64,000 bases of DNA. Origin: an uncultured Actinomycetes bacterium. GTDB taxonomy: Bacteria; Actinomycetota; Thermoleophilia; Solirubrobacterales; Solirubrobacteraceae. The position numbers and the translations under genes were made by a program. The DNA lies in NCBI GenBank assembly GCA_963817035.1, contig CAWFMM010000003.1, forward strand, positions 759,910-823,909, in the 5' to 3' direction. Below, one piece after another: positions 26,085-56,831 of this stretch. Positions within the stretch are counted from its first letter, which is position 1; every line of letters starts with the position of its first letter. The notes beneath the pieces were generated by a model, which was not told the origin of the DNA, searched no databases, and worked only from the letters and a program-made list of their open reading frames with translations.

Positions 26085-26116
26085 CCTTACTCTAGCAAGG
26101 ACACCGTCCTTACTCT
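26085..26116 (-). promoter_or_regulatory. direct repeat CCTTACTCT (x2) in the low-GC stretch upstream of the AbrB-type antitoxin; candidate operator/promoter
   Basis: CCTTACTCT occurs at 26085..26093 and 26108..26116. This is locally the only AT-rich segment. The second copy spans the stop codon of the sugar transferase gene. Confidence 0.3.
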
Positions 26117-26703
26117 GGGTCGACCCAGCCGCCGGTCTCGCCCTTGTAGGTCCCCTCACCGCCAAGGACCATCCGCACGGTCCGCAGCAGGATCTGAACA
26201 TCCAGACGCCACGAGCGGTGCTCGATGTACCAGAGGTCGAGCTCGATTCGCTGCGACCACGGAAGCGACGCGCGGCCGTTGACCTGGGCCCAGCCGGTGA
26301 TCCCCGGGCGGATCGCCAGGCGCCCGCGCTGGCGCTCGGTGTACTGCTCCACCTGGATCGGGATCGTCGGGCGGGGGCCGATGATCGCCATGTCGCCGCG
26401 CAGGACGTTGAAGAGGTTCGGGATCTCATCCAACGACGTCCGACGCAGGAACGCGCCGACGCGGGTGATCCGGCTGTCGCCGGCGTTGACCGCCATCCCC
26501 GCCCCCATGTGCTCGGCCCCGCTGACCATCGTGCGCAGCTTGAGCACGTCGAACTCGCGGCCGTGCAGGCCGACACGGCGCTGGCGGTAGATCGCCCCGC
26601 CGCGCGACTCGAGCTTCACCGCGATCGCGGCCACGGCCAGCACCGGGCTGAGCACGATCAACGCTGACCCCGCGACGACGATGTCGAACGCGCGCCGGAT
26701 CAC
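26110..26703 (-). CDS. small monotopic phosphoglycosyl transferase (bacterial sugar transferase, PglC/WbaP-C-terminal type)
   Basis: ORF 26110..27048 trimmed to GTG 26703 (VIRRAFDIVVAGSALIVLSPVLAVAAIAVKLESRGGAIYRQRRVGLHGREFDVLKLRTM). Also SLDEIPNLFNVLRGDMAIIGPRP. GTGA overlap with the upstream GT2. Confidence 0.9.
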   Translation of the reverse strand: MIRRAFDIVVAGSALIVLSPVLAVAAIAVKLESRGGAIYRQRRVGLHGREFDVLKLRTMVSGAEHMGAGMAVNAGDSRITRVGAFLRRTSLDEIPNLFNVLRGDMAIIGPRPTIPIQVEQYTERQRGRLAIRPGITGWAQVNGRASLPWSQRIELDLWYIEHRSWRLDVQILLRTVRMVLGGEGTYKGETGGWVDPE

Positions 26704-31535: not shown

Positions 31536-33006
31536 CTATGGCGCGCCGCGCGCCGGGCGCCGCCAGCGCGCCATCTCGCGCAGCCGTTCCTTCTCGACGT
31601 CGTGCAGGAAGCCCGAGGCCAGGAGCACCACCGGGATCACCGCCAGCGCGATCGATCGCGTCACGAAGCCGACCACGCCCGTGACCGGTAGCAGCAGGTC
31701 GCCGGCCACCGAGACGCCGGCCATCACCGTCACCGCCAGCGCCAGCCGCTGCCACTCGAACGGCACGACGAACAGCCGCCGCGTCAGGAGATGGATCGCC
31801 ACGAGCATGACCACGTAGGCGCCGCACAGCGAGATGCCCGCGCCCTTGATCCCCAGCGGCCCGACGAGCGTCACCAGCAGCACCGCGTTGGCCGCCAGCC
31901 CCAGCATCGCGGCGGGGAACGTCCGCGTCGTGATCTTCGCCCGCCCCGCGATCGTCACGAAGACGAGGAACAGCCCGTACAGCGACCAGCCCAAGCGCGA
32001 CCCACGGCAGCGACGCCGCGGCGCCGTAGAACCGCGGCGCCGCCAACAGCCGGATCCCCCAGTCGCCGAGCAGGACGACGGCCGAGACGACGATCCCGGT
32101 GACCAGCACGTAGGCGGTCGTCACGAACGCGTACAGCCGCCCGGCCTCCTCGTCGTCGCCGACGGAGTACGCCAGCGGCGGCCACGCGGCCTGGAAGCCG
32201 CGCACGGCGAGGATCACGATCGTCGCCATCTTCACCGACAGCGCGTAGAGCCCGGCCGCGGCCGGCGACTCGACCCGCAACAGGTAGGCGCGGTCGAGGA
32301 CGTTCAGGGCGAAGACGGCGGCGTCGGCGGGGACGGTCGGCGCGCCGAAGCGCATCAGCGGGTCGAGCGCGCGGCGGCCGCCGGCCGGCCAGAACCCGAC
32401 GCGGCGGCGCTCGAAGACCCACAGCCCGAGCAGGACGACGGTCGACGAGCCGTAGTTGCCCAGCAGGTAGCCGCGCGCTCCCTGCCCGAGGATGACGACG
32501 AGCACGATCGTCGAGGAGACCGTCAGCACGACGTTGGTCAGCGACGCGGTCATGTACACGCGCCGGCGCTCCTCGCAGCGCAGCAGCGTGTACATCAGGT
32601 CAAGGTTGGTGAACGCCCACAGGCCGAGGACACCGAGCGAGAACAGGGTGCCGTCGTCGGTGGCGAGGATCAGCCGCGACAGCGACTCGGCAAAGACCAG
32701 GGCCAGCGCGGCGACGATCGTCGTCGTCACGAACGTGAAGCCGCTCGCCGTGCGCGCGAGGCGATCGCGGCGCTCGGCGTCGTCGTCGTCGAACCAGAAC
32801 CGCAGCAGCGCCTCGCCGATCCCGAAGCGCAGGACGATGCTCGCGAGGATGATGAACGTCAGCAGCGTCTCGGCGTAGCCGTACTGCGCCTGGGTCAGAT
32901 GGCGCGTGTAGAGCGGCAGCGTGATCAGCGCCAGCGCAGCCGACAGGAAGCTCGCCGCCTGGTAGGCCGCCGACGATGCGGCCAGGCGTTTCAGGTAGCC
33001 GAGCAC
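31536..33006 (-). pseudogene. Wzx-like polysaccharide flippase (MOP superfamily); frame broken by one extra base in the CCC/GGG run at 31990..31992
   Basis: The N-terminal 338 aa come from GTG 33006 (MLGYLKRLAASSAAYQAASFLSAALALITLPLYTRHL..AASLPWVALG). The sequence continues in ORF 31536..31994 (GWSLYGLFLVFVTIAGRAKITTRTFP..). The original frame becomes Arg/Asp-rich nonsense. Confidence 0.8.
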
Positions 33007-35314: not shown

Positions 35315-35724
35315 TGCTCGTCGTCGACGCGAGCGCCGTCGCGGAGCTGCTGCTCGGAAGGCCCGCCGCCGAGCAGATCGAGCGCCAGTTCGAGGCACAT
35401 GACTACGCGCTTCACGCACCACATCTGCTGGACGTCGAGGTCTTGAGCGCGCTGAGGCACGTGGTAGCCGCGGGCGAGGCGTCGCCGGCCCGCGCCGACG
35501 AGGCCATTGCGGACCTGCTCGATCTCCCGGTCGAGCGCTACCCGCATGACATCTTCGTGCGCAGGATCTGGGAGATGAGAGACAACCTCTCCGCGTACGA
35601 CGCCACCTATCTGGCGCTCGCGGAGACCGTCGCCGAGCGCGGGGCGCCTCTACTGACCGCCGACGGTCGCTTCGCGCGGGCGGCCCGCGCGCACAGCTCG
35701 GTCGACGTCCTGCTCGTCCGCTGA
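35314..35724 (+). CDS. vapC: PIN-domain toxin (VapC family)
   Basis: 136 aa starting MLVVDASAVAELLLG, then SAYDATYLALAE and LLTADGRFARAA. TGATG overlap with the antitoxin stop. Confidence 0.85.
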   Translation: MLVVDASAVAELLLGRPAAEQIERQFEAHDYALHAPHLLDVEVLSALRHVVAAGEASPARADEAIADLLDLPVERYPHDIFVRRIWEMRDNLSAYDATYLALAETVAERGAPLLTADGRFARAARAHSSVDVLLVR

Positions 35725-35862: not shown

Positions 35863-36933
35863 GTGGCCGACGACGGGATCTGCGCCCTCCTGCTCCCGCG
35901 CACGCTCGAGCGCTTCATCCTGCGCGATCAGGCGGAGGATCTGCTGCGGGCGATCGGGGTCGTCGCGGTCGAGCCGCCGCGGCTGCCCTACGGGGCGATG
36001 GGACGGATGCCGGCGTGGCTGGCCGAGACGATCGCGACGCGGCAGGGCCGGCGGTTGGCCAAGGCGCTGCCCGGCGACCCGAAGGCGATCGTCATCTTCC
36101 ACCCGCTTCAGTACCCGCTCGCCCGCGGGCTGCTGACCGCGGCCCCGGGCTGCGAGCTCTGGTACGGGCGCTGGGATCGCTACGAAGAGGCCTACGACGC
36201 CCCGCCGAAGATGCGCGAGCGCCTGGCCGAGCTGCATGAGCTCGCGGCCGCGCGCAGCACGCTGACCTTCGTCGCCTCCGACGAGCTGAAGCGCCTCGAG
36301 ACCGAAGCGGGGCGCGAGGCGACCGTCGTCGCGCTCGCCGCCGACTCGTTCCCCGCCCCCGACCCGACGGCGCCGGTGATCGCCGTCTCGCTCGGCCATC
36401 TCGGCTGGCGCACCGACTGGTCGCTGCTGCGCGCGGTCGCCGAGCAGATGGAGGAACTGACGCTGCTGCTGATCGGCGCCTGGCATGACGACGAATGCAA
36501 GGACGACCCCGACTACGCGTGGTGTCGCGCGCACCCCGGTTTCGTCTGGCTGGGCGAGCGAAGCGACGAGGAGGCCGCGCGGCTGATCCTGTGCGCCGAC
36601 GTCGGCATCGTCCCGTTCAAGCGAGAGCCGTTCAACGAGTCGGCGCTGCCCTACCGGATCCTCAAGTACGCGCTGCTCGGCCGCGCAACCGTCTCGCCCG
36701 AGCTGGCCGGCGTCCATACGTGGGATCGCGCGGTGACCACGGCGCCCGACGCGCCCGCGTTCGCCGCCGCGCTGCGCACCCACGCGGGCGCCCGCACGAA
36801 GCCCGACGCGGAGCTGCGGGCCTGGGCGTTCGCGCAGACGGCGCGCGCTCAGAACGCGCCGTTGTGGGAGCGCCTCGAGGAGATCGGCGTCGACATCAGG
36901 GCTTCCCCCGGGCGCACGCCTCGTACGCCGTGA
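35863..36933 (+). CDS. glycosyltransferase (GT-B, TuaH/GT4-like)
   Basis: 356 aa (GTG start). C-terminal half reads IGAWHDDE..VGIVPFKREPFNESALPYRILKYALLGRATVSP, which resembles the GT1/GT4 nucleotide-sugar pocket. Confidence 0.6.
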   Translation: MADDGICALLLPRTLERFILRDQAEDLLRAIGVVAVEPPRLPYGAMGRMPAWLAETIATRQGRRLAKALPGDPKAIVIFHPLQYPLARGLLTAAPGCELWYGRWDRYEEAYDAPPKMRERLAELHELAAARSTLTFVASDELKRLETEAGREATVVALAADSFPAPDPTAPVIAVSLGHLGWRTDWSLLRAVAEQMEELTLLLIGAWHDDECKDDPDYAWCRAHPGFVWLGERSDEEAARLILCADVGIVPFKREPFNESALPYRILKYALLGRATVSPELAGVHTWDRAVTTAPDAPAFAAALRTHAGARTKPDAELRAWAFAQTARAQNAPLWERLEEIGVDIRASPGRTPRTP

Positions 36934-38328
36934 ACGTCTGATTGGACGCGACCTCGGTGAACCCGGACGGCGCGGTGTTGTCAACCGCCGAGGCGCCGGC
37001 CGCGCGACCAAACCGATTCACCGCCTTGTCACCCGAGATCACCAGCGCAACGCCGCGGGTGAATGCGTGGTTGCTGCGGGATCCCACCTCGTGCGGCGTC
37101 GCATCCAGGATCCAGCGCGTGTCGGGCACGAGCCGGTAGTTGGGCAGCGTCAGCGCGCCGCAGCGCCGCGCGGCGACGACGGCCGGCCGGCGGAGGATCG
37201 CCTCGAGTCGCCGATGGGACTGATGGACGAAGCGCAGCTCGTTGACCGCGCGGCGGATCGAGCCGCTGTGGACGACGAAGACGGCACCTACGGCGACGAT
37301 GAAGACGGCGGCGACCGCGGCGACGCGGGGGCCGAGCTCGCGACCCACCCATTGCACGAGCTCGACCGCGACCCAGCCGGCGAACAGGCACAGCGCGACC
37401 GCGGGGACGGTCAGATAGCGCGGCAGTAGCGAGAGCCCCGCCGCTCCGAACGCGACGAACGCCAGCGCCCCGGCGCCGAGCAGGGCGAGCGGAACCTCGA
37501 CCGCGCCGCGCGGCTTGCGTCCGCGTCGCCCACCGCAGGACACACAGCCACGCCGCGCCGATCGACGCCCGCCACCACCACCGGCGCGCGGACCGTCGAG
37601 TCCAGCGCGCTGACCAGCGCGTGCGGCACCGCCCCGAGCCCCGTCACCCGATGCAGCTGATCGGCCTGTCCGCTCGTCGCGTGCAGCGAGTACAGCGGGT
37701 CGCCGGTCGACGCGGCGTCGACGATCACCCAGACCAGCGGCGCCGCGACGACCATCGCGAACAGGTCCCAGCGCCGCCGGCCGACCCACAGCCAGTAGAC
37801 CCCGGCCAGCAGCCACGCCTCGGGGCGCAGCAGCCCGGCCGCCAGCAGCAGCCCCATGACGACACGCGGTCGCCCGCGCGGCGTGCGCGCCTCGACCGCC
37901 GCCGCCCACATCACGCAGGCGACGAACGGAACGTCGACGTACGCCCGCGCCGCGTAGAGCAGCAGGGCGGGCGAGCCGAGGACGATCAGCGCCGCGACCA
38001 GCCCCGACCACGGCCCGAAGACCGCCGCGCCGGTGCGAAACGTCGCCCACACCAGCATCACGAACGCGATCACGCAGACCGCGACGAGCAGGCGGTCGGC
38101 GTCGGCGCCGACCGGCGTCAGCAGCGCGCTGACGCCGAGGAACAGCGGGTGGTGCGTCGGTGCCTGGTACGCCGTGAACGTCGGCGCGATCCCGTGCATC
38201 AGCTCGCGCCCCCAGACGAGCGAGTAGTAGCTGTCGTAGCCCGGGACGCTGGGGATCGCGAAGAACAGCACCGCGGCCGTGAACGCGAGCAGTCCGACGG
38301 CGCCCAGCTCCGCGCGCCGGGCGCTCAT
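36896..38328 (-). pseudogene. polytopic membrane protein, GT-C-like (ArnT/PMT_2-type) glycosyltransferase; one or two frame changes between about 37500 and 37590
   Basis: N-terminal part is ORF 37411..38328 (MSARRAELGAVGLLAFTAAVLFFAIPSVPGYDSYYSLVWGRELMHG..). The C-terminal part is only readable in the frame of ORF 36896..38341 (..AVEVPLALLGAGALAFVAFGAAGLSLLPRYLTVPAVALCLFAGW..TAYEACARGKP). Confidence 0.6.
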
Positions 38329-39767
38329 GGCAGGCCGACACCGAGCCCGAGCAGCGCCCAGGTCAGCGGGTCCTCCAGGAACGCCGCATAGAGCAGCGTG
38401 TGGAAGACGAGCGCCGTGAACGACGCGGCGACCACGGCCCGCACCGGCGACCCGCGGGCGCGGCGGAACAGCACCATGAACGCCGACCCGAGCAGCAGCA
38501 GGTACAGCGCGATGCCGAAGATCCCCTGCTCGGCGGCGACGGTCAGCGGGATCGTGTGCGACGCCGAGACCGCCTTCTCGCTCGAGGACTTGTCGTGGCG
38601 GCGAAACTCGCGCGAGAACGACCCGGCGCCGTAGCCCTGCAGCGGCCGGTCGGCGAACAGGTTGGCTCCGCCCTTGATCAGGTCATAGCGCCCGCTCGTC
38701 GCGGTGTCGGCGGACTTCGAGTCGCCGAGATGCAACCGCACGGTCGACGGCGCGCCGACGGCCAGGATCACGCCGACGAGCAACGTCGCCGCGGCGCCGA
38801 TCAGCGCCCAGCGCACGCTCCAGCGCAGCGCCCCGAGCACCGCCAAGCCCACGAGCAGCGCGCCGAAGCTCGACTGCGACAGCGTCAGCACGAGCCCGGC
38901 CCACAGCAGCACGAGCACCGCGGCGCCGCCGAGCACGACACGCCGCTCCTTCGTCCACAGCACGACGCCGGTCACGCCGAGCATCACGATGACGAGGAAG
39001 CGCCCGAAGATGTTCGGGTCGAAGAACAGCGAGTTGACGCGGAAGTACGGCGCGAACTGATTGTCGGCGATCACCTTCGGGTTCAGCAGCAGGTGGCGCG
39101 TGTGGTACTCCCAGAACCCGATTCCGACGAAGACGACGGCCAGCGCGACGAGCACCCCGAGGCACTGCACGGCGAGCCGCGTCGTCCACGCCACGCGGCG
39201 CATGAGCACGAACATGATCGAGAACGGGACGTAGAAGAAGACGACCTGCTGCAGCGCCCGCGTGAAGTCCGAGGAGTACGACGCCTGGACCGCGTAGAGC
39301 GTGACGAGACCCATCAGCGACCACTCGAGCCACCCGGCCGGCTTCTCGGCGCTGTCATCTCGCTCGTGGCCGAGCAGACGCGGAACCGCGAAGGCCAGCG
39401 CGCCGGCGCCGACGACGACGTAGAGCGGCACGAGCAGGTTCGAGGTCGACCCGCCGGCGGTGATCGGGATCCGGAACGGCAGCGCGGCGGCCAGTGCGAG
39501 CGGCAGCAGGATCGGCTTGCGGTCGATCAGCCACGCGAAGATCCCCAGCCCGACGAGGCCGACGACCGCGCCGCCGAACAGCAGCGGCGGGTGGTGGCGC
39601 AGGACCGCGAACTGCGACGAGTCGTAGATCGAGCTGATCAGGATGACCAGCGCGAGCGCGAGCGTCGCGAGCATCGCGGCGGCGCGCACGCGCGCGTGAA
39701 CGGGCGTCACGAGCACCGTGGCGGCGGCGAGGAGCGCGCAGGCGATCAGCGGGACAGGAGCGTCCAT
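38325..39767 (-). CDS. O-antigen ligase / Wzy-type polymerase family membrane protein
   Basis: 480 aa with about 11 TM segments and a large loop. The Wzy_C-like stretch is LLWAGLVLTLSQSSFGALLVGLAV and HTIPLTVAAEQGIFG. ATGA overlap with the downstream gene. Confidence 0.8.
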   Translation of the reverse strand: MDAPVPLIACALLAAATVLVTPVHARVRAAAMLATLALALVILISSIYDSSQFAVLRHHPPLLFGGAVVGLVGLGIFAWLIDRKPILLPLALAAALPFRIPITAGGSTSNLLVPLYVVVGAGALAFAVPRLLGHERDDSAEKPAGWLEWSLMGLVTLYAVQASYSSDFTRALQQVVFFYVPFSIMFVLMRRVAWTTRLAVQCLGVLVALAVVFVGIGFWEYHTRHLLLNPKVIADNQFAPYFRVNSLFFDPNIFGRFLVIVMLGVTGVVLWTKERRVVLGGAAVLVLLWAGLVLTLSQSSFGALLVGLAVLGALRWSVRWALIGAAATLLVGVILAVGAPSTVRLHLGDSKSADTATSGRYDLIKGGANLFADRPLQGYGAGSFSREFRRHDKSSSEKAVSASHTIPLTVAAEQGIFGIALYLLLLGSAFMVLFRRARGSPVRAVVAASFTALVFHTLLYAAFLEDPLTWALLGLGVGLP

Positions 39768-41579
39768 ATCCGTTCGTACAGCTGCGCGCTGTCGCGGTCG
39801 GTGAGCAGTTTCGAGGAGAAGTCGGGCAGGCCGACGCGGATCACGAGGCCGCGGCCGTAGCGGGCGGCGACGATGACGATCCGCCCGCGCTCGTCGACCG
39901 CGTCGGTGGCCAGGCGCAGACGCGTGCCGAGCGACGTCGTCGGCTCGTAGCGCGTGTAGCCGGTGAACTCGCCGTCGGTGCCGACGAACAGCGGCACCGC
40001 CGCGCTCAGCGTCAGGTTGGTCAGCGTCACCGGGCGGTTGACGATCGGCAGGATCCGCGAGCCGAAGAGGTCGGCGGGCGCGCGGCGGGTCGGCGCGTGC
40101 AGGCGGCCGGTCCTCGGCGAGATCTCGACGCTGCGCATCAGCGAGTCGGTGCCCAGGGACGCGAGCACGCCGCCCTCGCGGACGAACGACCGCATCTGGT
40201 CGGCGAGCCGGGCGGTGATCCAGCGCTCGTCACCGGCCAGCAGCACGCCGTGATGGCCCGCCAGCTGCGGCCCGACGCCGGCGGCGAGCGCGAGGTCGGT
40301 CGTGATGTCGTAGCCGTGCTTGTTGCGATCGAGTGCGGCGACCGCGTTGGCCTCGTTGGCTCCGAAGCCGATCGGCAGGCCGTCGCCCGCGAACGGCCGC
40401 GTCTGTGGGACCGAGACGCCCGCGTCGAGCGTGTCGGGCTCGCCGTCGCCGTCGCTGTCGACCAGGTTGCGCCCCTGCCAGGTGATGGCCGGCAGGACGA
40501 CGAGCACGCCGCGCGGCGCGGTCAGCGTGCCGACCCCCGAGCCGCTGACCACGAACGGCACGCGCTTGGTCGTGTGCCCGCGGTGGACGCTGAGCAGGTA
40601 GACGCCGGCCGGGCCGTGGGGCGCCGGGATCGTCAGCTTGACGTCGCGCGAGATGCCCGAGCGCAGCGGCTTCTGCGGCCCGCCGACGCGGCGCACCGAC
40701 CACGCGTAGGCGTGCTTGCGCGCGCCGACGAAGAACATCACCGGCGCGCCCTGGGTCGTCGGCGTCAGTGGCGTCTGGACGACGAGATCGGAGACCGTGA
40801 TGCCGCCGTGGCCGCGCAGGCGATGGCCGTGGCGCGTGCGCGGCAGGCCGTCGGCGTCGAGCGCGGGCGTCGCACCGCGGTTGCCGGCCTTGTCGCGCGC
40901 CTGGACGCCGACGAGGTAGACGCCCTCGGGCACCGGGCGGCCCTGGTCGTCGCGGCCGTCCCACTGCGACGCTGGTCAGCGGCGGGGCACTGTCGGGCAC
41001 GTCGAGCGTGCGCACGACGAGCGCCGGGCTGACGTCGGTGCGGTAGATCGTGACGACGCGATGGAGACCGGGCGCGGCGAGGTGGATCGTCGTCGGCGTC
41101 CCGCCGGACGGGATGATCTCGGGGCCCGCCCCCCGGCCCTTCTTCGACCCGACGCCGGTGACGACCGGGGCCGGGGCCGTCGTGTCGAGCCGGAACGTGC
41201 GCGGGAAGATGAACGAGCGGCCCTGGCTGCGCAGGATCACCCGCGCACGGTAGGGGCCGTCGGGGGCGATCTTGCCGCCGTCGGTCCTGCCGTTCCAGGT
41301 CAGGTGCAGCTTGCGAAACGCGCCGATGTGCCGGTCGGCGATCAGGCGGCGGACGCGATCGCCGGCGTGGTTGACGATGTCGACGGTGACGTCGTCGGCC
41401 TTCTTGACCGCGAAGGAGATGGGCACGTCCTCGTAGCGCCCCACGTGGCCGTTCAGGTAGGGCCCGCTGCGGAACTCCTGCACCGCCGCGGTCCCGTGCT
41501 TGAGGCGCTGGGCGACGAAGAACGCGGCGAACGTCGCGATGGCGAGCACGGCGAACACGCCGGCGGCCAGCCGGTTCAC
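39746..41579 (-). pseudogene. membrane-anchored protein with FlgD-Ig-like domains and a large C-terminal domain of unknown function; +1 frame break near 40963..40975
   Basis: GTG 41579 with GGAG 10 nt upstream (VNRLAAGVFAVLAIATFAAFFVAQRL..LTWNGRTDGGKIAPDGPYRARV..DVPDSAPPLTS). It continues in ORF 39746..40933 with a second FlgD-Ig motif, WDGRDDQGRPVPEGVYLVGVQARDKAGN. Confidence 0.65.
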
Positions 41580-42112
41580 GGACCGAGCTCCACCAGTTCG
41601 GCGTTCGGCAACGGGGCGCCGCGCAGCGCCGGGTCGCCGCGTTCGTGAGCGAGGATCAGCCGCATCGTCCCGCGATGAGACACGACGAGCGCGGGACGGG
41701 CGCCGGCACGGACGTCGGCGATCGCGGCCAGCGCGCGCTGCTCCTGCTCCTCGAACGACTCGCCGCCGGGGAAGCGGAAGCCGGCGCGGCCTGCCGCGAA
41801 GCCGGCGAAGCCGTCGGGATCGGCGGCGATGACCTGCTCGAACGAGAGGTCGGTCCAGTCGCCACAGTCGGTCTCGGCCAGGCGCATGTCGGGCACGGGA
41901 TCCAGGCCGATCGCCGCGCCGACGATCGTCGCGGTCTCGAGCGCGCGGGCGAGCGGGCTGCAGACCAGGACCGCCCATTCCTTCTCGGCCGCCGCCTCGG
42001 CGAGCACGTGCGCCTGGGCCCGGCCGGTGTCGTTGAGCGGAACCGGGAGATGGCCCTGGAAGCGGCGCTCGTGGTTGTAGGCCGTCTGGCCGTGGCGCGC
42101 GAGCCAGATCAC
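41576..42112 (-). CDS. histidine phosphatase (phosphoglycerate-mutase-like) family protein
   Basis: GTG 42112 (VIWLARHGQTAYNHERRFQG..LVVSHRGTMRLIL), with RHG and H catalytic motifs. GTGA overlaps with both neighbours. Confidence 0.85.
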   Translation of the reverse strand: MIWLARHGQTAYNHERRFQGHLPVPLNDTGRAQAHVLAEAAAEKEWAVLVCSPLARALETATIVGAAIGLDPVPDMRLAETDCGDWTDLSFEQVIAADPDGFAGFAAGRAGFRFPGGESFEEQEQRALAAIADVRAGARPALVVSHRGTMRLILAHERGDPALRGAPLPNAELVELGP

Positions 42113-42864
42113 GACATGTGCCCGACGGTGTCGGCGCGCAGGCCGAGGCGCAGGGTCTCGAGGCTCAGGACGTCGTCGGGGGCGATGTTGCCGAGGTTGA
42201 CCTCGGCCCCGAAGCGGCGCAGGAACCAGACCTGCTGATCCTTCTGGGGCGCCTCGAACAGGACGCGGCTGATGTCGATCGCGTGGGCGATCTCGTCGAT
42301 CAGTCCCATGCGCACCTCGCCGTCGGGGCGGTAGATCCCGGCCGTCCCGGTCTCGCGCGCCTCGGCGATGACCTTGAACGCCCCGGCCTCGAGCTCGGCC
42401 TCGATCTGCTCGACCCAGCGGTAGGGGGCCATGATCTCCTCGGCGTCCTTGGAGCCGACCTCGCTGAAGACGGTGAACCCCTCGCCGGCCAGCCGCGTGA
42501 TCAGCGCGAGCTTCTCCTCGCGGGCCAGGGCGATCGTCCCGTCGGAGATCTCGATGTGCGCCAGGCCGAGCTCGCGCAGCCACGCGACCAGGTCGTCGCC
42601 GCGATCCTGGCTCAGCGCGACCTCGGTCAGCGTGCCGCCGAGGACGACCGAGATCCCGTGCGCGCGGTAGCGCTCGAGCTTGGCCTCGAGGTTGGCGGTG
42701 ACCAGGGCCGTCCCCCAGCCGAGCTTGACGATGTCGATGTACGGCCCGGCGACCTCGACCAGACCATCGACGGCGGCGACCGACAGGCCGCGATCGAGGA
42801 CGTGGGTGAGTCCCGCCGAGCGCGGCTTGACGCTGCGCGGCGGGAGGTCGAGGAGGCTGGTCAT
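42109..42864 (-). CDS. comA: (2R)-phospho-3-sulfolactate synthase (ComA family)
   Basis: 251 aa: MTSLLDLPPRSVKPRSAGLTHVLDRGL..YIDIVKLGWGTALV..LGLAHIEISDGTIAL..FTVFSEVGSKD..VIAEARETGTAGIY. Full-length family-like pattern. Confidence 0.8.
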   Translation of the reverse strand: MTSLLDLPPRSVKPRSAGLTHVLDRGLSVAAVDGLVEVAGPYIDIVKLGWGTALVTANLEAKLERYRAHGISVVLGGTLTEVALSQDRGDDLVAWLRELGLAHIEISDGTIALAREEKLALITRLAGEGFTVFSEVGSKDAEEIMAPYRWVEQIEAELEAGAFKVIAEARETGTAGIYRPDGEVRMGLIDEIAHAIDISRVLFEAPQKDQQVWFLRRFGAEVNLGNIAPDDVLSLETLRLGLRADTVGHMS

Positions 42865-42882: not shown

Positions 42883-44052
42883 CTACCCGAGGTCGGCGCC
42901 GACGGTCACGACGACGCTCAGATTCTCGCCGGACGGCAACGCCGATTGAGCCACGACCTTGGTGTCCGCGTCGAGCGGAACGATCGCATCGCGGCCGAGC
43001 GCGAGCGTCTTCGCCACGGCGAGCGCCGAGCTCTTCTGGCCCGGCGCGTAGGCGACGGTCGTCGCAGAGTGGGTCTGGTCGCTGGCGTTCGTCTCGGCCT
43101 CCTTCGGGACGGTGAAGCCCGCGCCCGAGAGCTTGTCGCCGGTCGTCTTGGCCAGGCCGAAGACCAGCGTGCCGTTGAGCACGCCGACCGTGATCTGGTT
43201 GCGCGGCGGCGCATTGCTCGCGCTCCCGCCCGTGACCCCGCCCGAGGTCACCGCGGTCGGCGTCTTGGTCGTCGTGACGATCTTGTTCGGTGCGGCGGCG
43301 TTCTTGGAGTCGCCGCCGAACGGGTTGATCAGGACGAGGGCGATGATGACGAGCGCGAGCACGCCGCCACCGATCAGCAGCCGGTTGCGCCATGGCGAGT
43401 GCTCGTCCTCGGGCTCCTCGGGCGGCGGCGTCCCGTTGCGCGGGCGCCGCGCGGGCGTCGGGCTGGCCGAGGCGCGGGCGCGAGCCGACGCGGGGATCGG
43501 GGCCATCGCCACGCTGGTCTGGCCGATGTCGTCCTCGGTGTCACCGGAGCTCTCGGCGGGTGTGTCGTCGCTCGGCGCGTCGGGCTTGATGATGCTCGTC
43601 GCCTCGGCGTCGGCGTCGGGTGTCTCCTCGCCGGTCGCGGCCTCGGCGTCGGTCGCGGCCTCGGCGTCGGGCTTCTCGCCGTTGTCGTCCGTGCCGTCGG
43701 TCGCCGCAGCGACCCCCGCGGCTCGCGCAACCCCCAGCGCGGCGAGCGCCGCCGGCTTGGCCGCCGCCGGCGGCGGCGACGACTGCGCGGCGACCGTCGC
43801 GGGCTCGGGCCGGGCGATCGGCTCGGCGACGATCCGCTTGTTCGGGTCGGCCATCGCCCGCGCGCCAACCTCGGCGGCGCGCTCGGGGCCTCGCCCCGCC
43901 CACTCGCGCAGGCGCTTGACCTCGCGGGCCTGGGCGAAGTACAGGACGCTCAGGACCGCGAGCCCGATGATCGCCGCGAAGCCGGCGTAGGCACCGTAGG
44001 TCTTGATCTGATGCGTGAGGTTGAGCGTGTCAGCGAGGATTGCTGGCGTCAT
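42883..44052 (-). CDS. membrane-anchored protein with an acidic/Pro-rich linker and a LytR_C-like C-terminal domain
   Basis: 389 aa with an N-terminal TM (YAGFAAIIGLAVLSVLYFA) and a second TM. C-terminal region: ITVGVLNGTLVFGLAKTTGDKLSGAGFTV..TTVAYAPG. Confidence 0.7.
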   Translation of the reverse strand: MTPAILADTLNLTHQIKTYGAYAGFAAIIGLAVLSVLYFAQAREVKRLREWAGRGPERAAEVGARAMADPNKRIVAEPIARPEPATVAAQSSPPPAAAKPAALAALGVARAAGVAAATDGTDDNGEKPDAEAATDAEAATGEETPDADAEATSIIKPDAPSDDTPAESSGDTEDDIGQTSVAMAPIPASARARASASPTPARRPRNGTPPPEEPEDEHSPWRNRLLIGGGVLALVIIALVLINPFGGDSKNAAAPNKIVTTTKTPTAVTSGGVTGGSASNAPPRNQITVGVLNGTLVFGLAKTTGDKLSGAGFTVPKEAETNASDQTHSATTVAYAPGQKSSALAVAKTLALGRDAIVPLDADTKVVAQSALPSGENLSVVVTVGADLG

Positions 44053-44064: not shown

Positions 44065-45990
44065 CTAGGGCGCTTCGCGGAGCGCTGGCGCCGTCCGGAC
44101 CGCCGACAGCTCGGCCACCCGGGCCGCCAGACCCGCCGCATCGCCCTCGAGAACCAGCAGTCCGATCTGATCGAACATCTCCGCCACCGCGCCCGAATCG
44201 AGCGGTTCACGCTCGGCGCGGACGATCTTCTCGGCGGGCGTGAGCTGCGGGCGCTCGTAGTCGTTGAACAGCTCCTCGTGGAGCTTTTCGCCCGGCCGGC
44301 GACCGACGATCTCGATCGCGATGTCGGTGTCGGGCTTGAGCCCGGAGAGCTCGATCATGTCGCGCGCCAGGGCCATGATCGAGACCGGCTCGCCCATCTC
44401 GAGCACGTAGACCTCGCCGCCGTCGCCCAGCGATCCGGCGCGAATGACGAGCTGCACGGCCTCCGGAATCGTCATGAAGTAGCGCGTCATCCGCTCGTCG
44501 GTCACCGTGACGGGCCCGCCGAGCGCGATCTGACGACGGAAGATCGGGACGACCGAGCCGGAGGAGCCGAGCACGTTGCCGAAGCGCACGGTCGAGAAGC
44601 GCGTGGAAGGCCAGCGCCCCTGGGCCTCCTCGACCGCCCATTCGGCCAGCGCCTTGGACGCGCCCATGACCGTCGCCGGCGAGACCGCCTTGTCGGTCGA
44701 GACGAGAACGAAGCGCTTGACGCCCGTCTCGCCGCAGATGCGGGCCATCAGCCGCGTGGCGATCGCGTTGTTGCGCACCGCCTCGACCGGGTTTCGCTCC
44801 ATCAGCCCGACGTGCTTGTAGGCCGCCGCATGGAAGACGACGGTCGGGCGATGCTCGGCCAGCACCTCGCGCATCCGTTCGCCCTCCTTGCAGTCGGCAA
44901 GCACCGGCTGGAGCGTCGAGGGATGGACGTGGCGGTCGTCCTCGAGCTCGCGCTGGATGCGGAACAGGTGCTCCTCCGCGTGGTCGATGAGGATCATCTG
45001 GCGCGGCGCGACACGCGCGATCTGGCGACAGAGCTCCGAGCCGATCGAGCCGCCCGCGCCCGTGACCATGACGACCTCGCCGCTGAGGTAGGCGCCGACG
45101 CGATCGAGCTCCATGCGCACCGGCTCGCGCCCGAGGATGTCCTCGACCTCGACGCCACGGACCTGGCGCACGAAGTTGCCACCGCTCCCGGCCAGCAGCT
45201 CGAAGACCGTCGGCAGGGTGCGCACCGGGACGCCGCGCTCGCGGCACGCGCGCACGACGTCGCCCCGCAGCGCCCCGGACGCGGACGGGATCGCGATCAT
45301 CACCTCGTCGGGCTCGACCTCGTCGAGGATCCGATCGAGCTCGCGGCGCGGTCCGAGGACCTTCACGCCGTCGACGCGCTGGCCATGCAGGCGCGCGTCG
45401 TCGTCGACGAAGCCGACCGGATTCAGCCTGAGGTCGGGGTTGCGCATCACCTCACGCAGGACGAGGCGGCCGCCGTCGCCGGCGCCGACGATCAACACGC
45501 GCCGCGCATCACTGCGGGGCCTGAACCCGCGCAGTGGGCGTTCGTAGATCGTGCGCGCGATGAACCGCGCACCGCCGACCAGGCCGAGGGTGATGAGGAA
45601 GAAGAAGGCGAGAACACCCGGCGGGACGTTGACGCTCGCGCGCCCACCGGGGGGACCGGCGATCAGCGGATGCGTGACGACAACGAAGCCGGCGATCGAC
45701 AGCGTCGCCACGCTCACCGCTTCGATGATCGCGACGTAGTCGCGCTGGCCCACATAGCGCCACCACTTCTGGTAGAGCCCGAAGAGCGTGAAGATGATCA
45801 GGCTCGAGACGACCGTCCACGCGATCGTGCTCTCGAACAGCTGCTCGTAGCGCGCCGGGACGTGGCGGAAGTCAAACCGCAGGCGGTAGGCGAGGAAATA
45901 GGCCGCGGCGACCAGCACCGCATCGAGCACGACCTGCCCAAACGAGTGCCGGTGCAGCGGGACGGTCGCCGATCTCATGCGTCGGCGCAT
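44065..45990 (-). CDS. membrane-bound nucleotide-sugar 4,6-dehydratase (CapD/PglF/WbpM family)
   Basis: The last 641 aa of the 1051-aa track ORF: MRRRMRSATVPLHRHSFGQVVLDAVLVAAAYFLAYRL, 4 TM segments, VLIVGAGDGG, VMVTGAGGSIGSEL, FHAAAYKHV and STDKAVSPATVMGASK. Confidence 0.9.
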   Translation of the reverse strand: MRRRMRSATVPLHRHSFGQVVLDAVLVAAAYFLAYRLRFDFRHVPARYEQLFESTIAWTVVSSLIIFTLFGLYQKWWRYVGQRDYVAIIEAVSVATLSIAGFVVVTHPLIAGPPGGRASVNVPPGVLAFFFLITLGLVGGARFIARTIYERPLRGFRPRSDARRVLIVGAGDGGRLVLREVMRNPDLRLNPVGFVDDDARLHGQRVDGVKVLGPRRELDRILDEVEPDEVMIAIPSASGALRGDVVRACRERGVPVRTLPTVFELLAGSGGNFVRQVRGVEVEDILGREPVRMELDRVGAYLSGEVVMVTGAGGSIGSELCRQIARVAPRQMILIDHAEEHLFRIQRELEDDRHVHPSTLQPVLADCKEGERMREVLAEHRPTVVFHAAAYKHVGLMERNPVEAVRNNAIATRLMARICGETGVKRFVLVSTDKAVSPATVMGASKALAEWAVEEAQGRWPSTRFSTVRFGNVLGSSGSVVPIFRRQIALGGPVTVTDERMTRYFMTIPEAVQLVIRAGSLGDGGEVYVLEMGEPVSIMALARDMIELSGLKPDTDIAIEIVGRRPGEKLHEELFNDYERPQLTPAEKIVRAEREPLDSGAVAEMFDQIGLLVLEGDAAGLAARVAELSAVRTAPALREAP

Positions 45991-52922: not shown

Positions 52923-52925
52923 CGC

Positions 52926-55051: not shown

Positions 55052-56134
55052 CTACACGGCGGCGGCTACCGCGCCCACGACTTCCTCGACCTGCTCGCGC
55101 GTGATCGCGGCGCTGATCGGCAGGGCGAAGTGGGTCCGCGCGACCTCGGCGGTGCCCGGCAGGTCGACGGTCGGCTGGTAGGCGGACATCGACTGCTGGC
55201 GGTGGATCGGTACGCGGTAGTAGGCACGCGACTGGATGCCGGCCGCGCTGAGCGCGTCGATGATCGCGTCGGCCTTCGGGTGGCGCACGACGTAGAGATG
55301 CCACGCCGGCCGCGAACCCTCGGTCGCCACCGGCAGCGCGACGTGATCGCCCAAGCCGCAGTCCGCGTACCACTCCCCGGCCGCGCGGCGATGGTCGGCC
55401 CACGCGTCGAGATGCGGCAACTGCACCCGCAGGATCGCCGCCTGGATCTCGTCGAGGCGGCTGTTGTAGCCGATCTCCTTGTACGTGACCTTGTCGTGGG
55501 AGCCGTGGAACCGCAGCACGCGCACGCGCTCGGCCAGCGAGCGGTTCTCGGTGACGATCGCGCCGCCGTCGCCGAACGCGCCGAGGTTCTTGGACGGGTA
55601 GAACGAGAACGTCGAGATCCGCCCGACGGTCCCCGGCCGCCCGTGGGAGCTCAGCGTGCCGGCAGCCTGCGCGGTGTCCTCGAGCACCGAGACGCCCATC
55701 GCCTCGATCTCGGTCACCGGCGCGACGTTGCCGAACAGATGGACCGCGATCACCGCCTTCGTCCTCGGCGTCAGGGCCGCGCGCACCGTCTCGGGCGTGA
55801 CCATCATCGTCTGCGGATCGACGTCGCAGAACACCGGGCGCGCGCCGGTCGGCGGGATCGCCTCGGCGCTGGCGTAGAACGAGAACGACGGGACGACGAC
55901 ATCGTCGCCCGGCCCGACGCCGAGCGCGCGCAGGGCAATCGTGATCGCCTCGGTGCCGTTGGCCACGCCCATCACCTCACGCGCGCCGAGGTAGCGGGCG
56001 AACTCCGACTCGAACGCCGCGACCTCCTCGCCGAGGATGTACTGCTCGCGATCGAGGACCCGGCCGACGGCCGCGCGCAGCTCGTCGCGCAGCGGGTGCA
56101 GCGGTGTCGCGGGATCGAACAGTGGGACGGCCAT
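55052..56134 (-). CDS. DegT/DnrJ/EryC1/StrS-family PLP-dependent sugar aminotransferase
   Basis: ORF 55052..56353 trimmed to M74 (MAVPLFDPATPLHPLRDEL). Also VANGTEAITIAL, FSFYPSKNLGAFGDGGAI and GYNSRLDEIQAAIL. Confidence 0.9.
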   Translation of the reverse strand: MAVPLFDPATPLHPLRDELRAAVGRVLDREQYILGEEVAAFESEFARYLGAREVMGVANGTEAITIALRALGVGPGDDVVVPSFSFYASAEAIPPTGARPVFCDVDPQTMMVTPETVRAALTPRTKAVIAVHLFGNVAPVTEIEAMGVSVLEDTAQAAGTLSSHGRPGTVGRISTFSFYPSKNLGAFGDGGAIVTENRSLAERVRVLRFHGSHDKVTYKEIGYNSRLDEIQAAILRVQLPHLDAWADHRRAAGEWYADCGLGDHVALPVATEGSRPAWHLYVVRHPKADAIIDALSAAGIQSRAYYRVPIHRQQSMSAYQPTVDLPGTAEVARTHFALPISAAITREQVEEVVGAVAAAV

Positions 56135-56831
56135 GGCGAGAGCAACGCTACCCTTCGACGGCTCCGTGCCGATCGACGCCTCCATCACCGACTCCCTGAT
56201 CACGTTCGCGACGAACGTGATCGACCATCTCGGCCTGCCCGGCGTCGTGCTGCTCTGCGCCCTGGATTCGATGGGCGTCCCGATCGCCGCCGCGGTGATC
56301 CTGCTGTTCGCCGGGTTCAACATCTCCGACCCCCAGTCGCACCATGACTTCACCCTGTTCGGGGTCGTCGCGGCCGGCGTGATCGGCGACGTGATCGGCT
56401 CCTCGATCGCCTATGCGATCGGCTATTTCGGGCGCAGCGAGCTGCTCGAGAAGCACGGGCGCAAGCTCCACGTGACGCCGGAACGGCTGGCGCTCGTCGA
56501 GCGCTGGTTCGATCGCTACGGCCTGATCGTGATCCCGGTCAGCCGCTTCATCCCCGTTGTGCGGACGTTCATCGCCTACCCGGCGGGCGCGGCGCGGATG
56601 CCCTACGGACGGTTCATCGCGCTGACCGCGCTCGGCGCCTTCGCGCTGTCGCTGCTGTTCGCCTCGATCGGCAAGGCGGTGGGGACGAACTGGACGCACT
56701 GGCGCCATGCGATCGGCTACGTCGACTACGTGGTCGTGGTGGCCATCGTCATCGGCGTGATCTGGCTGATCGTGCGCCGCCGCCGGGGCGGCGGCGCTGA
56801 CGGCGAGCCGGCCGTCGATGCCGGCGTCTGA
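56133..56831 (+). CDS. DedA-family membrane protein
   Basis: ORF 56037..56831 trimmed to ATG 56133 (alternative GTG at 56166). LGLPGVVLLCALDSMGVPIAAAV, ERWFDRYGLIVIPVSRFIPVVRTFIAYPAG. Confidence 0.8.
   Translation: MARATLPFDGSVPIDASITDSLITFATNVIDHLGLPGVVLLCALDSMGVPIAAAVILLFAGFNISDPQSHHDFTLFGVVAAGVIGDVIGSSIAYAIGYFGRSELLEKHGRKLHVTPERLALVERWFDRYGLIVIPVSRFIPVVRTFIAYPAGAARMPYGRFIALTALGAFALSLLFASIGKAVGTNWTHWRHAIGYVDYVVVVAIVIGVIWLIVRRRRGGGADGEPAVDAGV

What the first reader, a model, noticed from the sequence alone, without database searches (positions are those of the whole stretch)
41576..42864. Phosphosulfolactate synthase (ComA) coupled to a histidine phosphatase inside a Wzy/GT-C surface-glycan operon
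The 251-aa ORF matches the ComA family along its whole length by eye. Its stop overlaps the GTG start of a PGM-type histidine phosphatase (RHGQT...SHRG) at 42109-42112, and that gene's stop overlaps the next gene at 41576-41579. ComA condenses sulfite with PEP to phosphosulfolactate, and a phosphatase would release sulfolactate. The canonical partners ComB, ComC and ComDE are not nearby, so coenzyme M synthesis is unlikely, and the phosphatase here is not ComB-type. The pair sits in one co-directional chain: CapD/PglF-like dehydratase, LytR_C protein, ComA, phosphatase, FlgD-Ig protein, O-antigen-ligase-like and GT-C-like genes (45990 down to 36896). The simplest reading is that a C3 sulfonate (sulfolactate or a derivative) is made for, or attached to, a cell-surface glycan. 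I am not aware of that being described.
Basis: partly seen in the sequence, partly recalled or inferred. Interest (0 to 1): 0.65.

Follow-up and report, generated by a model that had tools for sequence, protein, structure and literature searches.

The report
Sulfolactate-making gene pair inside glycan operon
A soil actinobacterium (order Solirubrobacterales) carries a sulfite-plus-PEP enzyme (ComA) and an unusual partner phosphatase inside its cell-envelope sugar-polymer operon; the layout recurs across the whole class, which suggests, without proving, that a small sulfonated acid is made for the cell surface.

Summary
ComA (42109-42864, minus strand; Pfam PF02679, E 3e-89, full length) has a stop codon overlapping the GTG start of a 178-aa branch-1 histidine phosphatase (41576-42112; PF00300, E 1e-46). 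That gene's stop overlaps the next gene. Both lie in a tightly packed minus-strand operon: CapD, LytR_C, ComA, phosphatase, FlgD_ig/DMFA2_C, Wzy_C, GT-C. No ComB, ComC, ComDE or sulfate-activation gene lies in the 64 kb.

- **Pairing in the order:** of 80 Solirubrobacterales species, 55 have ComA followed by the phosphatase. One nested clade of 25 has lost it.
- **Pairing elsewhere:** in an unrelated metagenomic clade with a different context, 56 of 57 loci have the pair. This supports the phosphatase as a non-homologous stand-in for ComB.
- **Glycan link:** ComA stays next to CapD and FlgD_ig/Wzy genes in all 80 species. It does so again in Gaiellaceae-like and Miltoncostaeaceae-like relatives, where it sits with sulfate-to-sulfite genes and other "second enzymes".

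So sulfolactate synthesis is well supported. Use of the product in an envelope glycan is plausible but unproven: no transferase was identified and no chemistry is known. I rate it a new variant of a known kind, with interest about 0.6.

The parts
42109..42864 (-). ComA, phosphosulfolactate synthase homolog (251 aa)
   Evidence: PF02679 E 3e-89, full length. TIGR03849 259.9 bits, below the 280 cut-off. PDB 1u83 (B. subtilis YitD) E 8e-57 and 1qwg E 3.5e-51. All invariant columns of 36 homologs are kept.
41576..42112 (-). Branch-1 histidine phosphatase (178 aa), proposed phosphosulfolactate phosphatase
   Evidence: PF00300 E 1.3e-46. No NCBIfam equivalog cut-off is reached. Catalytic R6/H7/N13/R56/E80/H146 are invariant in 57+50 ComA-linked orthologs. 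The GTGA overlap with the ComA stop is verified, and a start overlap occurs in 31 of 42 related loci.
39746..41579 (-). Membrane-anchored FlgD_ig + DMFA2_C protein, start overlapping the phosphatase stop; split by a frameshift between 40966 and 41025
   Evidence: FlgD_ig E 3.7e-5 (below the Pfam cut-off) and DMFA2_C E 3.9e-13. tblastn of the 596-aa single ORF of L001 hits two frames.
42883..44052 (-). LytR_C-domain membrane protein with a long Ala/Pro/Asp/Glu-rich linker, 18 nt upstream of ComA
   Evidence: PF13399 E 3.4e-11. Found upstream of ComA in 54 of 60 loci by tblastn.
44065..45990 (-). CapD/PglF-like membrane nucleotide-sugar 4,6-dehydratase
   Evidence: PF02719 E 7.8e-109. Upstream of ComA in 60 of 60 loci with enough flank.
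38325..39767 (-). Wzy_C family polymerase/ligase-like membrane protein
   Evidence: PF04932 E 7.8e-19, 68.4 bits against a cut-off of 31.7.
36896..38352 (-). GT-C (PMT_2-like) glycosyltransferase, split by a frameshift between 37501 and 37579
   Evidence: PMT_2 E 3.3e-4. tblastn of the L002 492-aa homolog hits two frames.
31566..33006 (-). Wzx-type flippase (Polysacc_synt homolog), split by a frameshift near 31990
   Evidence: tblastn with the L001, L002 and L036 flippases, E down to 6e-137, in two frames.
26110..26700 (-). Small PglC-like phosphoglycosyl transferase (Bac_transf), the initiating enzyme
   Evidence: PF02397 E 1.2e-63 on residues 118-295 of ORF 26110-27048.
24384..25379 (-). PylC-like ATP-grasp ligase that recurs in the cluster; a candidate carboxylate-activating enzyme (speculative)
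   Evidence: PF21360, PF15632 and PF02655. A homolog at 66-81% identity lies 5-10.5 kb from ComA in 37 of the 80 loci.
55052..56353 (-). DegT/PseC-like sugar aminotransferase of the wider cluster
   Evidence: PF01041 E 1.2e-100. Recurs upstream of CapD in many loci.
56037..57633 (+). DedA/VTT protein and BacA undecaprenyl-pyrophosphate phosphatase (lipid-carrier recycling)
   Evidence: PF09335 and PF02673. Recur 4-10 kb upstream of ComA in most loci.

Best explanation
A two-gene sulfolactate module sits inside a Wzx/Wzy-type envelope-glycan operon.

- Step 1 (family-level inference, strong): ComA adds sulfite to phosphoenolpyruvate, giving (2R)-2-O-phospho-3-sulfolactate.
- Step 2 (inferred from conserved pairing): the translationally coupled 178-aa histidine phosphatase removes the 2-phosphate through a phospho-histidine intermediate and releases (R)-3-sulfolactate. 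It would do the job of ComB without being related to it. Phosphosulfolactate is a close analog of 2-phosphoglycerate and 2,3-bisphosphoglycerate, the classic ligands of this superfamily.
- Step 3 (inferred from operon membership and deep synteny only): the C3 sulfonate is consumed by the envelope-glycan pathway encoded around it. That pathway includes a PglC-like initiating transferase, a CapD/DegT amino-sugar route, glycosyltransferases, a Wzx flippase, a Wzy_C protein and a GT-C. The sulfonate could serve as a substituent or as an aglycone. The attaching enzyme and the linkage are unknown.

My sub-probabilities: step 1 about 0.9, step 2 about 0.65-0.7, step 3 about 0.45-0.5.
For: **Step 1**
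- Full-length ComA HMM match and 46-50%-level similarity to solved ComA/YitD structures.
- All invariant and near-invariant columns of 36 diverse homologs are retained.
- In relatives at 57-61% identity, ComA is operonic with PAPS reductase, APS kinase, ATP sulfurylase and a TauE permease. An ATP-sulfurylase-ComA fusion exists.

**Step 2**
- GTGA start/stop overlap in the window.
- 55 of 80 Solirubrobacterales species have the phosphatase directly after ComA. The start overlaps the ComA stop in 31 of 42 evaluable loci.
- In an independent metagenomic clade (ComA 58% identical; neighbours LysR-TauE; no glycan genes seen), 56 of 57 loci have a His_Phos_1 gene directly after ComA.
- Catalytic residues are invariant in both sets.
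- ComB is the common fusion or neighbour of ComA elsewhere but is absent from the window and all 170+ loci.

**Step 3**
- Gaps of at most 18 nt or overlaps from CapD to GT-C, with no credible terminator inside.
- CapD lies upstream in 60 of 60 loci and the FlgD_ig protein downstream in 78 of 80, although the outer genes are shuffled.
- In the phosphatase-less clade, the ComA stop overlaps the FlgD_ig start, followed by Wzy_C and the flippase.
- Outside the order, the ComA module again abuts Bac_transf, DUF354, CapD, DegT, FlgD_ig, Wzy_C, Polysacc_synt, DMFA2_C or PIG-L genes in L084, L085, L086, L171 and L173.
Against: - No enzyme that would activate or transfer sulfolactate was identified. 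The glycosyltransferases, ATP-grasp and acyltransferases give only generic, sub-threshold family matches.
- A monophyletic clade of 25 species keeps ComA in the operon but has no phosphatase within 10 kb. The phosphatase is therefore dispensable at the locus, or the phosphorylated product is used there.
- Conserved synteny within one class can reflect descent rather than function. One outgroup locus (L090) shows the sulfonate module without glycan genes within 9 kb, and the second ComA-phosphatase clade is not in a glycan context.
- The phosphatase reaches no equivalog cut-off, and its best family scores are CobC-like and PhoE-like. Its substrate is therefore not shown.
- No sulfite-supply genes lie in the window.
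- No sulfolactate-bearing glycan is described in the searchable literature.
Confidence: 0.5

Rival explanations
1. The pair makes free sulfolactate that is not attached to anything. It would be a cytoplasmic or exported anionic solute, a sulfur store or a stress metabolite, like the sulfolactate that makes up about 5% of B. subtilis spore dry weight. On this view its position in the glycan operon is inherited synteny or mere co-regulation with envelope growth.
For: - The B. subtilis precedent: yitCD plus yitBA-yisZ, and sulfolactate in spores (PMC517825).
- The second ComA-phosphatase clade lies next to a LysR regulator and a TauE-type permease rather than glycan genes.
- L090 has the sulfonate module without glycan genes nearby.
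- No attaching enzyme was found.
Against: - ComA is kept between CapD/LytR_C and FlgD_ig/Wzy in 80 species while the surrounding genes are rearranged.
- It is translationally coupled to membrane proteins of the glycan machinery.
- The same association recurs in two further Thermoleophilia lineages that use different accessory enzymes.
Confidence: 0.22
2. The histidine phosphatase does not act on free phosphosulfolactate. Either it dephosphorylates a later conjugate or a sugar-phosphate intermediate of the glycan pathway, as GpgP does for glucosyl-3-phosphoglycerate. Or phosphosulfolactate itself is the building block, for example as a phosphodiester-linked substituent, and other unlinked enzymes process it.
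For: - The 25-species clade has ComA but no local phosphatase.
- Outgroups replace the phosphatase with a fumarate-reductase/aspartate-oxidase-like flavoprotein and a class-I fumarase-like hydro-lyase. So phosphosulfolactate has several fates in this class.
- M. tuberculosis GpgP is among the best structural-sequence matches (E 3e-16).
Against: - The pair is conserved in a non-glycan context in 56 of 57 loci of another clade. This is most simply explained by consecutive steps on the same small molecule.
- Loss of the phosphatase is a single event on the ComA tree.
Confidence: 0.15
3. The pair supplies the first steps of a longer sulfonate pathway whose remaining genes lie elsewhere in the genome: sulfopyruvate, cysteate, taurine, sulfoacetaldehyde or coenzyme M.
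For: ComA and ComB are steps 1-2 of the methanogen coenzyme M pathway, and ComA (XcbB) starts the bacterial one (PMC9457059). Only 64 kb of a genome larger than 1 Mb could be inspected.
Against: - No ComC, ComDE, XcbC/D/E-like, cysteate or sulfolyase genes lie in the window or in the Pfam-annotated neighbourhoods of relatives.
- No known coenzyme M-dependent metabolism is encoded nearby.
- The operon partners are envelope proteins.
Confidence: 0.08
4. ComA acts mainly as a sulfite scavenger, detoxifying sulfite by trapping it on PEP, and the product is simply dephosphorylated and discarded.
For: TauE-family permeases (sulfite/sulfonate exporters) accompany ComA in other clades.
Against: - In those clades the operon also encodes the enzymes that make sulfite from sulfate. 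That is biosynthesis, not detoxification.
- ComA is more conserved (70-88% identity) than its neighbours across the order.
- Spending PEP for detoxification is costly.
Confidence: 0.03

Closest known systems
Methanogen coenzyme M pathway, steps 1-2 (ComA phosphosulfolactate synthase, ComB 2-phosphosulfolactate phosphatase)
   Same: The same first enzyme family (PF02679; E 3.5e-51 to M. jannaschii ComA, 1qwg) and the same proposed two-step chemistry: PEP + sulfite to phosphosulfolactate to sulfolactate.
   Different: The phosphatase is a branch-1 histidine phosphatase (PF00300), not the Mg-dependent ComB family (PF04029). No ComC or ComDE lies nearby. The organism is an aerobic-type soil actinobacterium, and the context is an envelope-glycan operon.
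Bacillus subtilis yitCD / yitBA-yisZ sporulation operons (sulfolactate, about 5% of spore dry weight; PMC517825)
   Same: A bacterial, non-coenzyme-M use of ComA. YitD is the best solved-structure match (1u83, E 8e-57). The outgroup operons here also carry PAPS reductase, APS kinase and ATP sulfurylase, like yitBA-yisZ.
   Different: B. subtilis uses ComB (YitC), and its product is a free spore solute. Here ComB is replaced, sulfate-activation genes are not local, and the genes are co-operonic with Wzx/Wzy glycan machinery.
Bacterial coenzyme M pathway of Xanthobacter (XcbB-XcbE; PMC9457059)
   Same: It starts with a ComA homolog, and it shows that bacteria route phosphosulfolactate into pathways without ComB.
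   Different: There, phosphate is eliminated by an aspartase/fumarase-superfamily lyase to give sulfoacrylate, followed by cysteine addition. None of those enzymes is present here. The hydrolytic histidine phosphatase implies sulfolactate as the product.
GpgS/GpgP of mycobacteria (glucosyl-3-phosphoglycerate phosphatase Rv2419c, a histidine phosphatase that finishes the glucosylglycerate primer of methylglucose lipopolysaccharide)
   Same: A small branch-1 histidine phosphatase acting on a phosphorylated C3 hydroxy-acid in a glycan-related pathway. GpgP is among the best PDB sequence matches (4pz9, E 3e-16).
   Different: No GpgS (GT81) is present. The NCBIfam and PDB scores do not single out GpgP over PhoE, PspA or CobC. 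The partner enzyme is ComA.
Pgl-type and Wzx/Wzy-dependent glycan systems (PglF/PglE/PglC-like sugar route; Wzy_C family polymerases or PglL-type O-oligosaccharyltransferases)
   Same: A CapD/PglF-like dehydratase, a DegT aminotransferase, a small Bac_transf initiating enzyme, a Wzx flippase, a Wzy_C protein, and BacA/DedA carrier recycling are all present in the window.
   Different: No such system is known to contain a sulfonate-forming enzyme. The conserved LytR_C and FlgD_ig/DMFA2_C membrane proteins have no assigned role in the model systems.

Membership tests
ComA / phosphosulfolactate synthase (PF02679, EC 4.4.1.19) | Full-length match to the family profile above the curated threshold | tested here: met
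   E 3e-89, 299.1 bits against a cut-off of 25.2; profile positions 2-243 of 243.
ComA / phosphosulfolactate synthase (PF02679, EC 4.4.1.19) | NCBIfam equivalog model TIGR03849 (arch_ComA) cut-off | tested here: not met
   259.9 bits against a cut-off of 280. The model is built on archaeal ComA; even the bacterial fusion proteins score 229-280.
ComA / phosphosulfolactate synthase (PF02679, EC 4.4.1.19) | Conserved acidic, Lys and Arg active-site columns of the TIM-barrel enzyme | tested here: met
   All 12 invariant and 24 near-invariant columns of 36 homologs (35-59% identical) are retained, including D44, K47, E81, E105, E135, K139, E168, E204 and R239. Gap-poor alignment to 1u83 and 1qwg. 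Residue roles from the crystal-structure paper could not be read.
ComA / phosphosulfolactate synthase (PF02679, EC 4.4.1.19) | Catalysis of sulfite addition to PEP | not testable with these tools
   Indirect only: relatives are operonic with sulfate-to-sulfite genes, and one is fused to ATP sulfurylase.
ComB / 2-phosphosulfolactate phosphatase (PF04029) | Homology of the partner phosphatase to the ComB family | tested here: not met
   The partner is PF00300 only. tblastn with three ComB domains finds nothing in the window or any locus. It may work like ComB but is not a member.
Histidine phosphatase superfamily, branch 1 (PF00300) | Profile match plus the catalytic RHG His, two Arg, the Glu proton donor and the second His | tested here: met
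   E 1.3e-46. R6, H7, R56, E80 and H146 align with PhoE catalytic residues and are invariant in 107 ComA-linked orthologs.
Histidine phosphatase superfamily, branch 1 (PF00300) | Assignment to a characterised subfamily (CobC, GpmB, PspA, dPGM, RNase H/acid phosphatase) | tested here: not met
   The best is TIGR03162 CobC, 117.7 bits against a cut-off of 162.9. All others are far below their cut-offs.
Coenzyme M biosynthesis (ComABCDE or XcbABCDE) | Presence of the downstream enzymes (ComC, ComDE, or XcbC/D/E) with ComA | tested here: not met
   None appears among the Pfam-scanned ORFs of the 64-kb window or in the annotated neighbourhoods of relatives. The rest of the genome could not be searched.
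Wzx/Wzy-dependent envelope glycan assembly | Initiating phosphoglycosyl transferase, Wzx flippase, Wzy-family protein and glycosyltransferases in one cluster | tested here: met
   Bac_transf E 1.2e-63. A flippase homolog at 31566-33006, frameshifted. Wzy_C at 68.4 bits. GT2, GT4, GT1 and GT-C genes.
Sulfonated glycan (proposed) | A transferase or ligase that attaches the sulfonate, and a sulfonate found in the polymer | not testable with these tools
   No specific candidate emerged. The cluster ATP-grasp is only 23% identical to the ATP-grasp fused to ComA in P0247. No literature report was found.

The most novel reading that the evidence does not exclude
Thermoleophilia are abundant soil actinobacteria that include Solirubrobacterales, Gaiellaceae-like and Miltoncostaeaceae-like lineages. 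On this reading they decorate or prime a Wzx/Wzy-assembled envelope glycan or glycoprotein with a C3 sulfonate made de novo from PEP and sulfite: sulfolactate here, and sulfoacrylate- or sulfopropionate-type derivatives in sister lineages. A histidine phosphatase would serve as a previously unrecognised phosphosulfolactate phosphatase. This would be the first ComA-derived sulfonated cell-surface polymer.
Probability: 0.4. Interest if true: 0.78.

Novelty: new variant of a known kind. Interest (0 to 1): 0.6.

Why it matters
ComA chemistry is known from coenzyme M synthesis and from Bacillus spore sulfolactate. Most bacterial ComA homologs, however, have no assigned role.

This finding gives two testable leads:
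- A histidine phosphatase that appears to replace ComB. This would be a non-orthologous displacement, and it would fix an annotation gap for hundreds of genomes.
- A class-wide physical link between de novo sulfonate synthesis and the main envelope-glycan cluster of Thermoleophilia.

From my own knowledge (not tested here), carbon-bonded sulfur, including sulfonates, is a large share of soil organic sulfur, and its microbial sources are poorly mapped. A sulfonated wall polymer in one of the commonest soil actinobacterial groups would be a new source term. It would also be a new type of anionic glycan substituent.

Tried and rejected
- **Coenzyme M pathway:** rejected as the local explanation. 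No ComB, ComC, ComDE or Xcb-type genes lie in the 64 kb or in the neighbourhoods of relatives.
- **Obligatory phosphatase:** I expected the phosphatase to accompany ComA everywhere. That is not so. 25 of 80 species lack it at the locus, although the ComA tree shows this as one loss event.
- **Substitute phosphatase:** I looked for one in a phosphatase-less locus (L036) and found none.
- **Cluster ATP-grasp as consumer:** I tested whether it is the same kind as the ATP-grasp fused to ComA in P0247. Identity is only 23% (E 7e-4), which is not informative.
- **NCBIfam naming:** naming of the cluster's glycosyltransferases, aminotransferase and acyltransferase gave only generic sub-threshold hits, with no BshA- or MshA-type assignment.
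- **Conserved unknown genes:** PDB sequence searches with genes next to the second ComA-phosphatase clade, and with the DMFA2_C part, found nothing.
- **Alignment query:** the first alignment (A1) was too diverse for the search for related loci. The genome scan then returned only Solirubrobacterales, the best 80 of at least 593 hits. Wider sampling had to come from the look-up of encoding contigs and one metagenome scan.
- **Literature:** searches for sulfolactyl or sulfolactate-containing glycans, for ComA plus histidine phosphatase, and for Solirubrobacterales plus sulfonate found nothing relevant. The ComA crystal-structure paper is not held.
- **Terminators:** the scan gave only chance-level matches inside coding sequence.
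- **Untested recollection:** in other Actinobacteria, a LytR_C protein and a histidine phosphatase flank rsfS near nadD. I did not test this here.

Full report
**1. The observation**

The window has about 71% G+C. Names attached to close homologs place it in the actinobacterial order Solirubrobacterales.

The ORF at 42109-42864 (minus strand, 251 aa) matches Pfam ComA over the whole profile (E 3e-89). It is most similar to the solved structures of B. subtilis YitD (1u83, E 8e-57) and M. jannaschii ComA (1qwg, E 3.5e-51). It scores 259.9 bits on the archaeal equivalog model TIGR03849, just under the 280 cut-off.

In an alignment with 35 homologs of 35-59% identity, it keeps all 12 invariant and 24 near-invariant columns.

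The next ORF, 41576-42112 (178 aa), is a branch-1 histidine phosphatase (PF00300, E 1.3e-46). It has the RHG histidine, both arginines, the glutamate and the second histidine, all aligned to PhoE. It reaches none of the curated subfamily cut-offs; the best is CobC at 117.7 against 162.9.

The flanking genes are also as described: CapD, LytR_C, FlgD_ig, Wzy_C and a PMT_2-like GT-C. Gaps are at most 18 nt or are overlaps. No credible terminator lies inside the operon.

**2. The wider window**

Almost the whole 64 kb was Pfam-scanned. It is a large envelope-glycan region containing:
- BacA and a DedA/VTT protein;
- a DegT aminotransferase and a UDP-GlcNAc-3-dehydrogenase-like oxidoreductase;
- a hexapeptide acyltransferase;
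- an SDR/AMP-binding/LuxE/LuxC block;
- several GT2, GT4 and GT1 enzymes;
- a small Bac_transf initiating enzyme and a PylC-like ATP-grasp;
- a Wzx flippase.

No ComB, ComC, ComDE, Xcb-type, TauE or sulfate-activation gene is present.

Four genes are each split into two frames relative to intact homologs: Wzx, GT-C, FlgD_ig/DMFA2_C and transketolase. This looks like indel error in the assembly rather than biology. ComA and the phosphatase are intact.

**3. Is the ComA-phosphatase pairing meaningful?**

A scan of one genome per species returned at least 593 ComA relatives. The best 80 are all separate Solirubrobacterales species with 70-88% identity.

By tblastn, 55 of these have the phosphatase directly after ComA. 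The predicted start overlaps the ComA stop in 31 of 42 evaluable loci. The other 25 have ComA followed directly by a short FlgD_ig protein and Wzy_C, with no phosphatase within 10 kb. On a ComA tree these 25 form one clade nested among the others, which indicates a single loss. A fully annotated example (L036) shows no substitute phosphatase.

Independent support comes from a more distant ComA (P0489, 58% identical) that is also followed by a His_Phos_1 gene. A metagenome scan seeded with it gave 80 loci, and 56 of the 57 with enough downstream sequence have the phosphatase right after ComA. The usual neighbours there are a LysR regulator and a TauE permease, not glycan genes. The two phosphatase sets are about 40% identical and share all catalytic residues.

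Elsewhere, ComA is commonly fused to ComB. No ComB-like sequence occurs in the window or in any fetched locus.

The simplest reading is that this histidine phosphatase performs the ComB step. This is chemically reasonable, because phosphosulfolactate resembles 2-phosphoglycerate and 2,3-bisphosphoglycerate. At 178 aa the protein is of the short phosphatase type rather than the mutase type. Both of those last points rest on established knowledge of the superfamily and are inference.

**4. Does ComA really use sulfite?**

In relatives with 57-61% identity, ComA sits in the operon order LysR, flavoprotein, two-subunit class-I fumarase-like hydro-lyase, ComA, PAPS reductase, APS kinase, ATP sulfurylase, TauE (L084, L085, L090, L173). 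Hits in the same score range are named Gaiellaceae.

An ATP-sulfurylase-ComA fusion also exists. This mirrors the B. subtilis yitCD / yitBA-yisZ arrangement for sulfolactate (PMC517825) and strongly supports sulfite as the substrate.

**5. Is it linked to the glycan?**

Within the order:
- CapD lies upstream of ComA in 60 of 60 loci with enough flank.
- LytR_C is detectable in 54 of those 60.
- The FlgD_ig protein lies downstream in 78 of 80, while the outer genes (DegT, DUF354, Wzy, GT-C, GT1, flippase, GT2/GT4, ATP-grasp) change position.

Outside the order the association returns with different accessory genes:
- L085 and L173 run ...ComA-CysH-CysC-Sat-TauE-FlgD_ig-Wzy_C, then PIG-L or flippase, epimerase and FlgD_ig/DMFA2_C. 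Bac_transf, and in L085 also DUF354, lie upstream.
- L086 and L171 (Miltoncostaeaceae-like, 62-63% identity) run DegT-DUF354-CapD-LysR-flavoprotein-ComA.
- L090 is the exception, with no glycan genes within 9 kb.

This argues for a functional tie between the sulfonate module and the Wzx/Wzy glycan, but it is contextual evidence only. I could not identify the enzyme that would use sulfolactate. The candidates are a glycosyltransferase using its free 2-OH, or the ATP-grasp or an adenylating enzyme using its carboxylate. ComA fusions to ATP-grasp and to AMP-binding/ACP modules in other lineages show that such activation exists somewhere. All of these candidates remain speculative.

**6. Comparison with what is known**

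The chemistry matches steps 1-2 of methanogen coenzyme M synthesis and the B. subtilis sulfolactate pathway. It differs from the bacterial Xcb pathway, which eliminates phosphate instead (PMC9457059).

Two things appear to be new:
- the histidine phosphatase in place of ComB;
- the class-wide embedding of the module in an envelope-glycan operon.

I found no paper describing either.

**7. Verdict**

The sulfolactate-synthesis reading is well supported. The glycan destination is plausible, at about 0.45-0.5, but unproven. The main rival is a free-sulfolactate role.

I rate the finding a new variant of a known kind, with interest 0.6.

Noticed in passing
window 31566-33006, 36896-38352, 39746-41579, 18625-20941 (all minus strand): Four genes are each split into two reading frames compared with intact homologs: the Wzx flippase, GT-C, FlgD_ig/DMFA2_C and transketolase. 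The breaks lie near 31990, at 37501-37579, at 40966-41025 and around 18971-19251. Four in 64 kb suggests assembly indel errors (a long-read MAG) rather than pseudogenes.
   Followed up: partly
L084, L085, L090, L173, L174 (around locus position 5300-13100 in L173): Sister lineages carry an uncharacterised operon: a truncated L-aspartate-oxidase/fumarate-reductase-like flavoprotein, a two-subunit class-I fumarase/tartrate-dehydratase-like hydro-lyase, ComA, PAPS reductase, APS kinase, ATP sulfurylase and TauE. Fumerase_C overlaps ComA, and the two are fused in P0266. Sulfolactate, sulfoacrylate, sulfopropionate and cysteate are sulfonate analogs of malate, fumarate, succinate and aspartate. This may therefore be a new sulfonate pathway.
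   Followed up: partly
proteins P0247, P0267, P0279, P0317, P0326, P0273, P0361 (not in the window): ComA occurs fused to an ATP-grasp/L-amino-acid-ligase module, to AMP-binding (fatty-acyl-AMP-ligase-like) plus carrier-protein modules, to a carrier protein alone, and to ATP sulfurylase. One AMP-binding fusion is named from a Legionella sp. MAG. This hints at sulfolactate-containing lipids or natural products.
   Followed up: partly
window 48467-53959 (minus strand): A block of SDR, a 98-aa ORF with no Pfam hit (possibly a carrier protein), an AMP-binding enzyme, LuxE acyl-protein synthetase, LuxC acyl-CoA reductase and a hexapeptide acyltransferase sits in the glycan region. It resembles acyl-modification modules of some O-antigen clusters. 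It is not conserved next to ComA in relatives.
   Followed up: no
window 35081-35724 (+) and 25389-25919 (-); L001 17463-18130: PIN-domain (VapC-like) genes lie inside the glycan cluster. One is preceded by a 77-aa ORF, a likely antitoxin. A PIN gene with a small upstream ORF sits at a comparable place in L001.
   Followed up: no
loci L004-L083: Presence of the phosphatase tracks with the DMFA2_C domain on the FlgD_ig protein: 37 of 43 loci with the phosphatase have it, against 0 of 23 without. Both were lost in the same single clade, so this counts as one event, not 25.
   Followed up: partly
window 42883-44052 (minus strand): The LytR_C protein has an N-terminal membrane helix and a linker of about 200 aa rich in Ala, Pro, Asp, Glu and Thr. 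Such low-complexity stretches are typical targets of PglL-type (Wzy_C family) O-glycosylation, so it could be a substrate of the adjacent machinery. This is an idea only.
   Followed up: no
window 5951-9424 (-), 9563-10489 (-), 13472-14602 (+): Large high-GC3 ORFs of 1157, 308 and 376 aa have no Pfam match.
   Followed up: no
window 61530-62693 (-) and 63246-63890 (-): A GT2 glycosyltransferase lies next to a PilZ-domain protein. This may be a c-di-GMP-controlled polysaccharide synthase separate from the main cluster.
   Followed up: no
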